Below, piece by piece: positions 25,187-29,179 of a stretch of DNA of 35,811 nt. Below the pieces are notes generated by a model that was not told where the DNA came from, ran no database searches, and saw nothing but the letters and a program-made list of their open reading frames with translations. Numbering within the stretch: the stretch's first letter is position 1; every line of letters begins with the position of its first letter. Made by a program: the position numbers and the translations under genes. The DNA is taken from positions 1 through 35,811 of the forward strand of contig CAZXDF010000014.1 of assembly GCA_964639345.1 (NCBI GenBank), read 5' to 3'. This DNA is from an uncultured candidatus Brocadiaceae bacterium. GTDB lineage: Bacteria; Planctomycetota; Brocadiia; SM23-32.

Positions 25187-28100
25187 GTGGCGTCGATGCC
25201 CAGCCTTCGCGTCATCGACACCGGCTCGACGGCCGCGCTCGCCCCCGTAACGGAGGAGCCCATCGCGTCCCGCCACGGCGCCCGGGTGCCGATCAAGCGC
25301 CTGGCTTTCCTGTATCACAGCCTGCCGATCGAGCTTCGCCTGAGGGTGGCGCCCGTGCGGCCGCAGGTCGTCGCCACGGCGGTCAGCCACGCGCGGCTCC
25401 AGGCCGGGCTGGTGGAGCTGCTCACCAGAATCAGCTATCGCATCGGGGACGCGCCGCTGGAGCGGCTGCGCATCGGGCTGGATGAGGGACTCATCGTCCT
25501 GGGCGTCTCGGGCAGGGACATACGGATGTGGCGCACGGAGGGCGACGTGCTGGAGGTGCGGCTCAGCAGGCCGGTGAGCGGCGATTACGAGCTTGCCGTG
25601 AACTGCGTCCAGCACCTGCGCAAGGTGGACGGCGTTCTCATCCCGCACGTTCGCGCCCTGGACGCGGAGAGAGAGTCCGGCGCCGTCGGCGTCTCGGCGG
25701 TCGATGAGGTTGCCCTGCTGCATCATCACTCCACGAAGTTCGTGCAGGTCGACGTGGAGGAGTTGCCGGGCTGGGTGAAGGCGCTGGGGCCGAAGCTCGC
25801 ATACGTCTACGATCAGCCGGGCGGCGTGCTCGCCGTCGAATCTTCCCTCATCAAGCCGGTGCTGCACGTGCGCGGATATGCGACGGCGAACGTGGGCGAG
25901 GGCGTCGTGGAGGAGGAGTGCGTGTTTGTCGCCGACGTGGAGAGGCGGCCGGTCTTCGGCTTCCGCCTCCGCATTCCGGCGGGCCTCACGCCCATCAGCC
26001 TGCTGGGCGAGGACGTCGCCGACTGGGAGTTTCATCCGGCCCGGCGGGCCCTCAGCGTTTCGCTGAAGCAGGGGCTCGTCGGCCGCACGCGGCTGCACGT
26101 GTTCTGCGAGCGACGCTGCGGGCTGGACGTTGCCAGCATACCCCTCGGCGGCGTTGCCGTGCTGGATGCGGACGACGTGTCGGGTTGGCTGGGAGTCGGC
26201 ACCGACGCGAACCTCGAGCTGGCGCCGGCCGCGGTCGAGGGCATGATCCCGATGGACATCAAGGACGTGCCGCCGCTGGTGGCGGCCGCCGGCAACCTGC
26301 GGCTTGCCTACCGCTGGGCGGGCGAAGAATGGCGCATGGGCTGCGTGACCCGGCCGGTGCGGCCCCGCCTCGAGGTTGAGACGCGGACGCGCCTGCTGTT
26401 CGGCACGGGGCGGATGCAGGCGCGTACGGAGATAGTATGCAACATCGCAAAAGCCACGCTTGAGGAGCTTCTCATCGCGCTGCCGCCGGGTGCCGTCAAC
26501 CCGCAGATAAGGGGCGAGAACATCCGGAGCCGCGAATTGACCGACGGTCTCTGGCGCATCGGGCTGGCAAGGCCCGTCACGGGCGAGTGGCGGCTGCGCG
26601 TGAGCTTCGAGCAGGTCGCCGACCCGCGCACGGGCGACCTCCGGTTCGCTGGCGTCAGGCTCCCGCAGGCCGAGCGGCAGGCCGGCGTGATCGGCGTATA
26701 TCTGGAGGACCCGCAGGTCGAGGTGAGCGTGTTGAACGCCGACGGCGCGGCCCGCACGCAGACCGCCCCGGACGTTGACGGCGGGGCGCACGCGTTCCTG
26801 GACGCCTACAGGTATTCCGACCCGGCCCGCACAATCGACTTCAAGATGAAGGGCCACGCCATGGTGCGCGGCGTGCAGCTCAGCGCGGAGAAGTGCAGCA
26901 TCGTGACCGTGGTCAAGGAGCGCGGGCAGGCCGTCAACTACATGACGTGCAGCGTGAAGAACGTCGGCGCCCAGTTCTTCCGGATGCGGCTGCCGCAGGG
27001 CGCGGACCTGTGGGGCGCCTACGTCCAGGGCAAGCCCGTGCGCCCCAACAGGCTCCCGGATGGCGACATTCTGATTCCGCTGCTGGAAGCGCCGCGCGGC
27101 AAGCCATTCGACCTGGCCGTCATATGGGCGGAACCGACGGGCAGGCTGGGGCTGGGCGGCTCGCTCGCGCTGGTCGGGCCCGAGCTTGGCCAGCCGGCGG
27201 AGGAGGTGGACTGGGAGGTGAACCTGCCGGAGCGCTACCAACTCGTGCGCGCGCGGGGCAACATGCGCCTCGAGCAGCGTAAGGCCTGGTATCGCGAGGG
27301 GCTGCCGGGAATCCTGTGGCAGCACGTGCGGCGGGCGTGGCCGGTCGTGAAGATTGTTCTGCTCGTGGCTGCGGGGCTTGTCGGGATCGCGCTGCTTTAC
27401 ATCATCGCCCGCGCGCTGCGCCGCCACATGGCCCGCGCAAGGGCGGTGTGGAAAGAGGCCGCTCCCGAGGCCGAGGCGAAGCGCCGCCCGATCCTTGGAG
27501 GGGCTGTGGGAGTCCTGATCATCGTGTTTATCGTGGCGGTGTTCGCCGCCATGCTGATGCCGGCTCTGAGCACGGCAAGGCACGAGGCACGAGAGGCATC
27601 CGCAATGAGCAACCTGCGTCAAACCGGCCTGGGCATGCTGATGTATGCGAACGACCACGGCGACAAACTTCCCCCCTCGCTGGACGTCCTGATAGAAGAA
27701 GGGTACCTAACCCGGAACGCGCCTGTCTCGCCGATGACGGGCGAGAGGTTCATCTATGACCCCACGGTGGAACTGACCGGCGACCTAGCGAGGAAGACGA
27801 TGGCGTGGGACCGTCGCGACCCGAAAGCGGACGGCCAAGCCGTGCTCTTCGCAGACGGCCACGTCGAATGGGTCAAGGCCGAACGTGGCGCCAAGGCGCT
27901 TCGGGGCGTTCCGCTTGGCGGCGTAGAGGGGTGGCGAGAGGACATCGGCGTGACGGCTTCGGGAGGCGTGAGCGTCGATGCATTCCCTGGGTATGAGAAT
28001 GACGCGGACATAGACGGCGCCGGGCGCCCCGACCGTTTGGAGGGTAGCGGCCCCGAGGCGGACTTGGACCTGTCGGGGCCGGCGGCGTCAGCGGAAGATG

Positions 28101-29179
28101 AGGAAGGCGCCAAAAGGATTCACAGTTACAACAAGGCACTGCAACTGGCCGACTCGTACCGAAAGCGGGGCGAATACAGGAAGGCCGAAGGCCAATACAG
28201 GCGGGCCCAGCGCCTGGCACCCGACGACACCCGCGCCAAACAGGGCCTCAGCCGCCTGGAAGAGCTACAGACCATCGCAGAGGACGGGGGAAAAGCGAAG
28301 ATGGCAGCAAAGCCGCCGGTATCGGGTATGCGGCCGCCGGCGCCGCAGGCACCCCCTGCCAAGCCCAAGCCGCGCTGGGAGACATATAGCGTCGGGAGCC
28401 TCATCGCGCAGGCCGGCCAACTGGAAGAAGCAGAAGGAGCCGACTGGGAGGATGACGTCGCAGAGACCGGTACTGAGCGCGGGATACTCGGCCTGGTCTC
28501 TGGCGAGATCAAGAACTTCGACTTTGCTGATGGCGGCAGGGCGGTGCTCGAGGGCGGTGACCTGGTCATCACCGGGCACGCAGAGGTAATCGATGAGGTG
28601 AAGCGTTCCGCGGCCGGGCTGCGGGGCAGGATGCTGGAGAGGACGCGGCAGATCACGGTGAAGAAACTGCAGCAGAAGGCGGAAAGTGCCGCAAAGCGCC
28701 GCGCAGCACTGCGGGATATGGCGCGGGCCAGCCAGCTCAAGACACGCGTCGGCGGCGGGACGATAGTGGGCAACCGCGCGGCGGGGGCCTTGCCGATCGA
28801 GATCGACTTCCCGCGCGTGGGCACGAGGCCGTATCCGTTCCACATGGATTTCGCGGGCACCTCGGTGGCGAGGATCGAGCTGACCTGCCTGCGGGTCGGC
28901 ACGGCGCTGACCGTGCAGGGGCTGATAGGCATCGCGGCCCTGGCGCTGATCGCCCTGACGGGCTGGCATCGCCCCCGGGCGGGGCTGGCGCTGGCCGTCG
29001 GGCTGGTGCTGCTGTCGAGTTTCGTCCTCAAGACCGGTGGCGAGGCCCCCAAACCCTACGCCGTCATGGCGCTTCTGGGGGCCTGCTTTGCGGTCCTGGT
29101 GCCACTTACGCGGCTGCTGGCTGTGGCAAGGCAGCGCGCATGGAATGCCATGGGGAATACGAACAGAGGGACACAATGA
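25187..29179 (+). CDS. Giant repeat envelope protein, copy 1, segment after TAG (units 2-5, TM pair, pseudopilin-like/TPR/secretin-N-like insert, C-terminal TM anchor)
   Basis: 1330-aa ORF in the same frame as 24380..25171, with strong GC3 bias. It has four ~165-aa units, two TM helices (about 27338-27570) and three C-terminal TM helices. Stop is TGA. Confidence 0.7.
   Translation: [1330 protein letters not shown]
27482..27871 (+). other. Embedded pseudopilin-like domain (prepilin-type hydrophobic helix + H-X9-DG/DUF1559-like end)
   Basis: '[60 protein letters not shown] ... [11 protein letters not shown]'. This resembles PVC-type pseudopilins ('LLPALS.ARE.AR...C.NNLKQIGLA...Y' and a terminal 'DGHV' motif). 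It lacks the G/F-T-L-I-E cleavage/methylation site. Confidence 0.6.

What the first reader, a model, noticed from the sequence alone, without database searches (positions are those of the whole stretch)
27338..28640. Pseudopilin-like, TPR-like and secretin-N-like modules inserted inside copy 1 between membrane helices
Seen: after unit 5, copy 1 has a TM helix ('[28 protein letters not shown]') and a basic loop. Next comes a prepilin-type hydrophobic helix fused to a domain ending in '[11 protein letters not shown]'. Established: 'MPALS.AR..A......NL.Q.GL....Y' plus a terminal DGHV motif is the signature of the H-X9-DG/DUF1559 pseudopilin-like proteins that are abundant in Planctomycetes, Verrucomicrobia and Lentisphaerae. 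Here the G/FTLIE processing site is absent and the domain is internal. Downstream are an acidic linker, a TPR-like helix pair ('[40 protein letters not shown]') and a Pro-rich stretch. Then comes 'ETYSVGSLI...[48 protein letters not shown]'. This last pattern resembles the 'YDV.DL...W...G.L.V.qt...h..v...L..LR' modules seen N-terminal to secretin-type proteins. Copy 2 lacks the whole ~480-aa block. Inference: a repeat scaffold has been fused to pilus/secretin-interacting parts, which may tie this locus to a type II/type IV-pilus-like apparatus.
Basis: partly seen in the sequence, partly recalled or inferred. Interest (0 to 1): 0.6.

Follow-up and report, generated by a model that had tools for sequence, protein, structure and literature searches.

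The report
Leaderless pilin domain in giant protein
A giant membrane-anchored envelope protein of an uncultured planctomycete-like bacterium carries, between two groups of membrane helices, a pilin-type domain that has lost its processing signal, one TPR unit and a small family-specific fold that shows no detectable relation to secretins; this is a lineage-specific variant of a domain fusion that recurs in this group of bacteria, and its function is unknown.

Summary

- **Pilin part: confirmed.** The second membrane helix and the following ~105 aa are homologous to the genome's own prepilin-type H-X9-DG proteins (64% identity, E 1.6e-18). A profile of the domain hits PilA and GspG in the PDB (E 2e-7 to 8e-7). 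AlphaFold2 gives a pilin fold (pLDDT ~90). The cleavage and assembly signature is missing here (L at -1, G at +1, G at +5).
- **TPR: confirmed.** It is about 1.5 repeats.
- **'Secretin-N-like' segment: real module, label not supported.** It is a conserved, well-folded ~70-aa alpha/beta module (pLDDT 93). An exhaustive HMMER search of 1.84 billion proteins finds it only in orthologues. Foldseek gives only weak KH-like matches, with one secretin at rank 44 (E 1.0). hhalign against the genome's own secretin gives probability 0.05%.
- **Fusion: not a chimera.** At least 15 independent orthologue clusters are collinear.
- **Insert concept: holds.** The short paralogue shares the C-terminal anchor (hhalign E 1.3e-5) but lacks about 445 aa.
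- **Pilus/secretin link: none seen.** No T2SS or T4P gene neighbours the pair in any genome examined.

Most likely the block is a fixed inner-membrane anchor with periplasmic interaction modules. In this MAG the gene also has an upstream in-frame TAG and no usable start.

The parts
24380..25171 (+). N-terminal fragment of the long paralogue (copy 1). It is in the same frame as 25187..29179 and is cut off by an in-frame TAG at 25169-25171. No start codon or signal peptide lies upstream.
   Evidence: Orthologue P0006 reads Q at the TAG position and has a signal peptide. Relatives have no stops inside.
25187..27334 (+). Repeat scaffold of copy 1 (units of ~165 aa), ending in the conserved 'GNM' motif at residue ~692. 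It has no Pfam family.
   Evidence: 26% identity to copy 2, E 3e-41.
27335..27418 (+). TM1 (residues 717-744), running out-to-in by inference.
   Evidence: Hydropathy. AF2 helix. Conserved in orthologues.
27419..27490 (+). Basic cytoplasmic loop (residues 745-768) ending in 'KRRP'. It looks like a remnant of a prepilin leader.
   Evidence: Compare own-genome '[10 protein letters not shown]'.
27491..27880 (+). Leaderless pilin-like domain (residues 769-898). It comprises TM2 plus alpha1 (57-residue helix), a short helix, a three-stranded sheet and the H-X9-DG-type end '[11 protein letters not shown]'.
27881..28093 (+). Acidic, Gly-rich linker predicted as disordered. It contains a short conserved '(D/E)IGV' motif.
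   Evidence: pLDDT <50; alignment.
28094..28303 (+). TPR-like three-helix unit (residues 970-1039, about 1.5 repeats).
   Evidence: pLDDT 92-96; probability 1.00, rmsd ~1 A to TPRs.
28304..28372 (+). Pro/Lys-rich linker.
   Evidence: low pLDDT.
28373..28576 (+). Family-specific alpha/beta module (residues 1063-1130) with topology beta-alpha-alpha-alpha-beta-beta-beta. It is KH-like at best.
   Evidence: pLDDT 92.8, pTM 0.82.
28580..28750 (+). Long basic helix (residues 1132-1188) joining the module to the C-terminal anchor.
28751..28894 (+). The most conserved segment of the family: 'GGT..G.R.AGA.P.EI.FP..GT..YPFHMDYAGTS..RIE.TC' (residues 1189-1236). It is shared with the short paralogue.
   Evidence: invariant columns; hhalign E 1.3e-5. 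pLDDT <50 in the truncated model.
28895..29131 (+). TM3-TM5 (residues 1237-1315), the anchor shared with copy 2.
29140..32910 (+). Short paralogue (copy 2). It lacks the insert and is split here by an in-frame TAG at 31669-31671.

Best explanation
Window 27338-28640 encodes a periplasmic insert of about 445 aa that separates the long from the short member of a conserved tandem pair of giant, uncharacterised envelope proteins.

The insert starts with a transmembrane hairpin. The second helix of the hairpin, and the ~105-aa head that follows it, descend from a type IV pilin-class pseudopilin of the PVC 'H-X9-DG / DUF1559' kind, close to GspG. This copy is tethered on its N-terminal side by TM1 and has lost the -1, +1 and +5 residues. 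It therefore cannot be processed by prepilin peptidase or built into a fibre. It most probably acts as a permanent inner-membrane anchor that holds a small periplasmic binding head.

After the head come a disordered acidic linker, a 1.5-repeat TPR, a Pro-rich linker, a small family-specific alpha/beta module and a long helix. The helix leads back into the conserved C-terminal segment and three TM helices that both paralogues share.

Shown: domain identities, homology, topology elements, conservation, and absence of a secretin or T2SS link.

Inferred: the periplasmic location, from the orthologues' signal peptides and the basic TM1-TM2 loop.

Also inferred: that the pilin head, TPR and module are protein-interaction surfaces added to a membrane-bound scaffold, and not parts of a pilus or secretin machine.
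For: - Own-genome canonical prepilins match the helix and head (E 1.6e-18, 64% identity; whole-domain E 3e-11).
- Those paralogues carry N_methyl.
- A domain profile hits geopilin, PilA, GspG and PilE1 in the PDB (E 5e-8 to 1e-6).
- 8 of 13 copies of the domain (this one plus 12 orthologues) match NCBIfam GspG and 5 of 13 match H-X9-DG.
- P0007, P0009 and P0018 pass Pfam's DUF1559 cut-off.
- AF2 gives a 57-residue helix plus a three-stranded sheet at pLDDT ~90.
- The processing residues are absent in this copy and are only sporadic in orthologues.
- The same collinear architecture occurs in at least 15 clusters from independent assemblies.
- The C-terminal anchor is homologous to that of the short paralogue.
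- There are no T2SS or T4P neighbours.
- Some orthologues have lost the pilin head but kept the helix (P0014, P0015, P0023). This fits an anchor role for the helix.
Against:
- Function is inferred from architecture only.
- Three orthologues keep Glu at +5 and two or three keep Ala-Phe at -1/+1. Processing or pilin-pilin contacts cannot be excluded for the whole family.
- In this MAG the gene has an upstream in-frame TAG and no usable start. This copy may be inactive.
- pTM of the multidomain model is 0.31, so the arrangement of the domains is unknown.
Confidence: 0.6

Rival explanations
1. The insert couples the scaffold to a type II secretion or type IV pilus machine. The pilin-like helix would dock among (pseudo)pilins or on the platform protein, and the last module would contact the secretin.
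For: - The helix is homologous to pilin alpha1.
- The genome has at least 14 pseudopilin-like genes, at least 5 platform-protein loci, 2 prepilin peptidases and 2 secretin loci.
- TPR proteins such as PilF take part in pilus biogenesis. PilF appears among the weak Foldseek and profile hits, but only as a generic TPR.
- E+5 persists in 3 of 15 orthologues.
Against: - No machine gene lies next to the pair in any of the 9 or more genomes and contigs examined.
- The module shows no secretin relation: an exhaustive HMMER search finds only orthologues.
- Foldseek places a secretin at rank 44 (E 1.0).
- hhalign against the genome's own secretin gives probability 0.05%.
- This copy lacks -1 G/A, +1 F and +5 E.
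- Some orthologues lack the pilin head altogether.
Confidence: 0.12
2. The segment is decaying sequence in a pseudogene, and the domain arrangement has no present function in this organism.
For: - There is an in-frame TAG at 25169-25171 where orthologue P0006 has Gln.
- There is no start codon or signal peptide upstream.
- The sister gene also carries a TAG.
- A genome of the same genus (G001) lacks an orthologue.
Against: - The 1330-codon frame downstream of the TAG is fully open and all conserved columns are kept.
- The architecture itself is conserved in many genomes, so it is functional in the family.
- The TAGs could be recent mutations or errors in a MAG of 432 contigs.
Confidence: 0.2
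3. The fusion is an assembly chimera that joins a scaffold gene, a pseudopilin gene and another gene.
For: The genome is a fragmented MAG (432 contigs).
Against: - The same order of parts is found in P0006, P0008, P0009, P0012, P0015-P0018, P0021, P0023, P0025 and others from independent assemblies.
- It is also found in genomes G005 and G127.
- There is no frame change and no composition break.
Confidence: 0.01

Closest known systems
PVC-type prepilin-like proteins: N_methyl (PF07963) + DUF1559/SBP_bac_10 (PF07596) + H-X9-DG C-terminal motif (TIGR04294)
   Same: They share the alpha1 helix motif '[9 protein letters not shown].AR..A....NL.Q.GL....Y.ND', the small head and the terminal '[11 protein letters not shown]'. 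The closest paralogue in the same genome is 64% identical over the helix.
   Different: The domain is internal (residue 769 of at least 1330) and is preceded by another TM helix. It has no N_methyl signature (L-1, G+1, G+5). The head is short (~105 aa, GspG-sized) and not the ~270-aa DUF1559 body. Scores for this copy are below Pfam and NCBIfam cut-offs.
GspG, major pseudopilin of type II secretion (TIGR01710; PDB 5wda, 3g20)
   Same: Size and fold class are alike: a long alpha1 plus a three-stranded sheet. A family profile hits GspG at E 8e-7, and 8 of 13 copies of the domain match TIGR01710 at E <= 0.01.
   Different: There is no class III signal peptide and no neighbouring gsp genes. All scores are far below the equivalog cut-off (88.85 bits). 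The N-terminus is tethered, so the domain cannot enter a pseudopilus.
Secretin N1-N3 domains (Secretin_N, PF03958; KH-like ring-building modules)
   Same: Both are small two-layer alpha/beta modules of about 70 aa. The best Foldseek matches of the module are KH-domain proteins. From my own knowledge, and not tested here, KH-like is the fold class that has been assigned to secretin N1-N3.
   Different: No Pfam or NCBIfam hit. No secretin appears among the 23 hits in 1.84 billion proteins. One secretin (ExeD, 6i1x) appears only at rank 44 (E 1.0, TM 0.33). hhalign against the genome's own secretin gives probability 0.05%. The topology has an extra helix and an extra strand.
Modular ('bimodular') type IV pilins, for example PilB of Streptococcus sanguinis (title and abstract of bioRxiv 10.1101/2021.01.27.428410, listed)
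   Same: A pilin module is combined with another functional module in one polypeptide.
   Different: In those pilins the pilin module is N-terminal, is processed and is polymerised, and the extra module is grafted behind it. Here the pilin module is internal, unprocessed and flanked on both sides by membrane-anchored parts.
Other leaderless pilin-module fusions of PVC bacteria noted by this scan (AI notes e1-3334083 and e1-2196330), and the own-genome protein at G000:C159
   Same: A pilin helix and head without a leader lie behind a large exported domain (for the own-genome example; for the notes).
   Different: Here the pilin module is not C-terminal. It is followed by a TPR, a novel module and three more TM helices, and it sits in a giant repeat protein that has an insert-free paralogue next door.

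Membership tests
Type IV pilin / pseudopilin class (class III signal peptide proteins) | Hydrophobic alpha1-N helix homologous to pilins, followed by an alpha/beta head | tested here: met
   PDB profile hits to geopilin, PilA, GspG and PilE1 (E 5e-8 to 1e-6). AF2 gives a 57-residue helix plus a three-stranded sheet at pLDDT ~90.
Type IV pilin / pseudopilin class (class III signal peptide proteins) | N-terminal short basic leader ending in G (or A) at -1, with F/M at +1, cleaved by prepilin peptidase (N_methyl, PF07963) | tested here: not met
   The domain is internal. In register with P22 the residues are L-1 and G+1. There is no N_methyl hit. Canonical own-genome paralogues have G/A-1 and F+1, and the one scanned (C360) hits N_methyl.
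Type IV pilin / pseudopilin class (class III signal peptide proteins) | Glu at +5, needed for filament assembly | tested here: not met
   Gly is at +5 in this copy. Glu is kept in only 3 of 15 orthologues.
DUF1559 / SBP_bac_10 (PF07596) | Score at or above the Pfam gathering cut-off (23.3 bits) | tested here: not met
   16.6 bits for the whole protein and 19.4 bits for the insert alone, covering profile positions 2-36 of 268 only. Relatives P0007 (24.5), P0009 (25.8) and P0018 (25.0) pass. The canonical own-genome pseudopilin scores only 20.9.
H-X9-DG C-terminal domain (TIGR04294) | Full 22-residue H-X9-DG motif at or above 19 bits | tested here: not met
   13.8-16.3 bits, matching profile positions 11-22 only (the 'FADGHVEWV' half). 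The upstream His position is not matched. 5 of 13 copies of the domain match at E <= 0.01.
GspG (TIGR01710 equivalog) | Equivalog score of 88.85 bits and a gsp operon context | tested here: not met
   13.1 bits for this copy. The best among the 13 copies is E 1.3e-7. No gsp genes are nearby.
TPR (Pfam clan, e.g. PF13428, PF07719) | 34-residue helix-turn-helix repeat at or above the gathering score | tested here: inconclusive
   Sequence scores lie just below the cut-offs (TPR_14 21.2 against 23.5). Structure agrees: Foldseek probability 1.00 and rmsd 0.9-1.0 A over 46-49 columns to designed TPRs. The family profile hits consensus TPRs strongly. There are only about 1.5 repeats.
Secretin N-domain (Secretin_N PF03958; N1-N3 ring-building modules) | Profile similarity to Secretin_N, or occurrence N-terminal to a Secretin (PF00263) domain | tested here: not met
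   No Pfam or NCBIfam hit at E <= 1. All real hits in 1.84 billion proteins are orthologues of this protein. hhalign against the own-genome secretin gives probability 0.05%.
Secretin N-domain (Secretin_N PF03958; N1-N3 ring-building modules) | Structural match to solved secretin N-domains | tested here: not met
   In Foldseek against the PDB the best E is 0.05 (KH proteins, TM 0.35-0.43). The only secretin is ExeD at rank 44 (E 1.0, probability 0.21).

The most novel reading that the evidence does not exclude
The tethered, uncleavable pilin head would be a functional decoy or docking subunit. Through alpha1-alpha1 packing in the inner membrane it would join the giant two-protein envelope scaffold to the cell's large pool of H-X9-DG pseudopilins, or to a pseudopilus platform. 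The TPR and the new KH-like module would then recruit partners. This would give the expanded PVC pseudopilin family a structural role in organising the periplasm.
Probability: 0.1. Interest if true: 0.6.

Novelty: new variant of a known kind. Interest (0 to 1): 0.33.

Why it matters
Pilin-like H-X9-DG/DUF1559 genes are present in many copies here: at least 14 matches in this genome and dozens in some relatives. From general knowledge they are among the most expanded and least understood gene families of Planctomycetota and Verrucomicrobiota.

This case shows cleanly that a pilin module can be kept for a long evolutionary time after it has lost everything that makes it a fibre subunit. It is locked between membrane helices of a giant envelope protein, with an insert-free paralogue next door as a natural control. 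That supports the view that many of these 'pseudopilins' work as membrane-anchored periplasmic heads, not as filaments.

The work also defines a new, confidently folded ~70-aa module and an unnamed two-gene family of giant envelope proteins. The gain is descriptive. No function follows yet, and the suggested link to secretins does not hold.

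Tried and rejected
1. **Secretin-N identity of the third module: rejected.** Pfam and NCBIfam gave nothing. A PDB profile search gave only chance hits. An exhaustive HMMER search found only orthologues plus three spurious repeat proteins, among them SRCR-like and WHEP-like repeats. Foldseek was weak, and hhalign against the own secretin was null.
2. **Foldseek with the whole 642-residue model.** The TPR dominated, so it was uninformative for the pilin head.
3. **Naming the organism with the search for related loci on genome contigs.** The single-protein query returned only unrelated pseudopilins from other PVC MAGs. The organism therefore remains unnamed.
4. **Conserved neighbours.** None were found. 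The flanks are hisD and an isocitrate/isopropylmalate dehydrogenase-family gene here, and unrelated housekeeping or glycan genes elsewhere.
5. **Pfam family for the repeat scaffold.** None was found in this protein, five orthologues or the short paralogues. All source names are 'hypothetical protein'.
7. **Literature.** Two searches found no paper on internal or leaderless DUF1559 modules.
8. **Wholesale TAG reassignment: rejected.** TAG ends several ordinary genes in the window.

Full report
**Observation.** A position search and hydropathy scan place the parts as follows:
- TM1 at residues 717-744 (window 27335-27418).
- A 24-residue loop with 8 Lys/Arg.
- A second hydrophobic helix at residues 769-798 (27491-27580).
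- '[11 protein letters not shown]' at residues 886-896 (27842-27874).
- The TPR-like pair at residues 975-1014 (28109-28228).
- 'ETYSVGSLI...' from residue 1065 (28379).
- Three more TM helices at residues 1237-1315.

The frame is uninterrupted and GC is flat (0.67-0.70) across the region.

**The pilin-like part is real.** Pfam gives only sub-threshold hits to the first 36 positions of DUF1559 (16.6-19.4 bits against 23.3). NCBIfam gives partial H-X9-DG and faint GspG/ComGC hits.

The decisive evidence is paralogy. A six-frame search of the window's own 2.8-Mb assembly with residues 772-904 finds 14 other loci.
- The best is a canonical prepilin, '[61 protein letters not shown]' (64% identity, E 1.6e-18). 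It carries N_methyl (E 1.5e-8) and itself scores only 20.9 bits on DUF1559.
- A second own-genome prepilin aligns from 'LMPALS' to 'LFADGHVEW', that is, over the whole domain (E 3e-11).

Other lines agree:
- phmmer of the domain against PDB sequences returns type IV pilins as its five best hits.
- A 13-sequence profile of the domain raises this to geopilin 5e-8, PilA 2e-7, GspG 8e-7 and PilE1 1e-6.
- 8 of 13 copies of the domain (this one plus 12 orthologues) match TIGR01710 (GspG) and 5 of 13 match TIGR04294.
- P0007, P0009 and P0018 exceed Pfam's DUF1559 cut-off.
- AlphaFold2 (16-sequence alignment) gives a 57-residue helix, a short helix and a three-stranded sheet at pLDDT about 90.

In register with the conserved Pro22, this copy has Leu at -1, Gly at +1 and Gly at +5. 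Own-genome prepilins have G/A, F and E at those positions. Among 15 orthologues Glu+5 survives in three and Ala-1/Phe+1 in two or three, never together. The signature is vestigial. The 'KRRP' that ends the cytoplasmic loop looks like the remnant of the basic leader; this is an inference from sequence.

**TPR.** Scores are just under Pfam's cut-offs. AF2 gives three helices at pLDDT 92-96. Foldseek aligns them to designed TPRs at rmsd about 1 A with probability 1.00. A family profile hits consensus TPR proteins strongly. The unit is about 1.5 repeats.

**The 'secretin-N-like' module.** The segment is a true domain.
- It is conserved in all orthologues.
- Folded alone, it gives pLDDT 92.8 and pTM 0.82, with topology beta-alpha-alpha-alpha-beta-beta-beta followed by a long helix.

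Its secretin identity fails every test I could run.
- No Pfam or NCBIfam hit.
- No PDB sequence hit.
- An exhaustive HMMER profile search of 1.84 billion representatives gives 23 hits. All are orthologues or fragments of this protein, with the module at the same relative position, except three repeat-driven false positives.
- Foldseek against the PDB gives nothing better than E 0.05. The top matches are KH-domain proteins (Krr1/Pno1, TM 0.35-0.43). The only secretin, ExeD, is at rank 44 with E 1.0.
- hhalign of the module profile against the genome's own secretin (P0030, Secretin E 6e-39) gives probability 0.05%.

Secretin N1-N3 domains have been described as KH-like. That statement rests on my own knowledge and was not tested here. 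The most that can be said is that the module and those domains share a very general fold class.

Within 132 genomes of the same class the module occurs in three, all in one family.

**Not a chimera, and a genuine insert.** Independent assemblies encode the same order of parts: P0006, P0008 (genome G005), P0009, P0012, P0015-P0018, P0021, P0023, P0025 and several fragments.

Variation is informative:
- P0014, P0015 and P0023 keep the helix but have lost the pilin head.
- P0025 lacks the TPR.
- The commoner relatives in the same family (P0007, L024-L027) have two pilin-like domains in tandem, a TPR and no module.
- Class-level relatives (L028, L029) keep only a 'LSLPTLSRMR'-type helix.

Profile-profile comparison aligns the C-terminal conserved segment and TM3-5 of the long proteins with the C-terminus of the short paralogues (probability 81%, E 1.3e-5). 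The long form therefore has about 517 aa where the short one has about 72.

**Context.** The long (~1450-1780 aa) and short (~1230-1420 aa) genes are adjacent in every genome examined.
- Their neighbours differ each time and are housekeeping or glycan-metabolism genes.
- Neither protein has a Pfam family for its scaffold, and sources call them hypothetical.
- The genome does encode two prepilin peptidases, several platform proteins and two secretin loci, all on other contigs.
- Nothing therefore links the locus physically to a pilus or secretion machine.

**Mechanism.** Orthologues start with a signal peptide and the TM1-TM2 loop is basic. The repeats and the insert are therefore inferred to be periplasmic, with TM1-TM2 forming a hairpin and TM3-5 the shared anchor.

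A pilin helix tethered at its cytoplasmic end and lacking Glu+5 cannot be extracted into a fibre. I read it as a fixed anchor that presents a small head. The TPR and the new module would be further interaction surfaces on a membrane-bound scaffold. This is inference (confidence 0.6 for the structural reading; the biological role is unknown).

The docking rival keeps about 0.12. A pseudogene reading for this particular copy keeps about 0.2. The reasons for the latter:
- ORF 24380..25171 is the same gene cut by TAG 25169-25171, where P0006 has Gln.
- No start codon or signal peptide exists upstream.
- Copy 2 also has an in-frame TAG.

Earlier notes of this scan reached the same view of the TAGs. 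They also list other leaderless pilin fusions in PVC genomes. I treat these notes as leads; the own-genome example on C159 confirms that the theme recurs.

**Verdict.** Two of the three module identities are confirmed. The third is a new family-specific fold, not a secretin part. The proposed tie to a pilus or secretin apparatus is unsupported. The finding is a new variant of a known but uncharacterised kind of fusion, and of moderate-to-low interest.

Noticed in passing
window 25169-25171 and 31669-31671; 24269-24382: Both giant paralogues carry a single in-frame TAG. Copy 1 also lacks a start codon and signal peptide in its conserved frame. Relatives have uninterrupted genes, and P0006 has Gln at the first TAG. 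TAG also ends ordinary genes in the window, so it is not reassigned.
   Followed up: partly
G000:C159:2172-5354 (locus L003): A second protein of the same genome (at least 687 aa) has an internal, leaderless pilin-like domain near its C-terminus ('[40 protein letters not shown]...NCLFVDAHVEML'). It gives a sub-threshold DUF1559 hit (E 8e-4). Leaderless pilin modules therefore recur in this genome.
   Followed up: partly
window 28751-28894 (residues 1189-1236): The most conserved stretch of the family ('GGT..G.R.AGA.P.EI.FP..GT..YPFHMDYAGTS') was predicted with pLDDT <50 when the N-terminal scaffold was left out. It is shared with the short paralogue. It may complete a beta-sandwich of the scaffold or of the partner protein.
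   Followed up: no
loci L024-L027 and protein P0007 (relatives in the same family): The commoner variant of the long paralogue has two pilin-like domains in tandem. The second has no TM helix ('MPALNKARQSSRLSSQRHNLHNIGLAISIYR...'). A TPR follows and the KH-like module is absent.
   Followed up: partly
window 29140-32910 compared with 24380-29179: The short paralogue is much better conserved than the long one. Its best relatives are 67% identical, against 48% for the long one.
   Followed up: no
window ~27960-27975 (residues ~925-929, 'EDIGV'): A short '(D/E)IGV' motif is conserved in nearly all orthologues inside the otherwise disordered acidic linker between the pilin head and the TPR.
   Followed up: no
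orthologues P0009, P0016, P0021; P0011, P0015: Some orthologues keep Glu at pilin position +5. Others keep Ala-Phe at -1/+1, as in this genome's canonical 'MKKA|FTLIE' prepilins. None keeps both.
   Followed up: yes
G000:C327 (locus L035 6580-8850, minus strand): The genome's main secretin (756 aa) has a ~300-aa C-terminal extension after the Secretin domain. It sits between SAICAR synthetase and an ABC transporter, not in a recognisable secretion operon.
   Followed up: no
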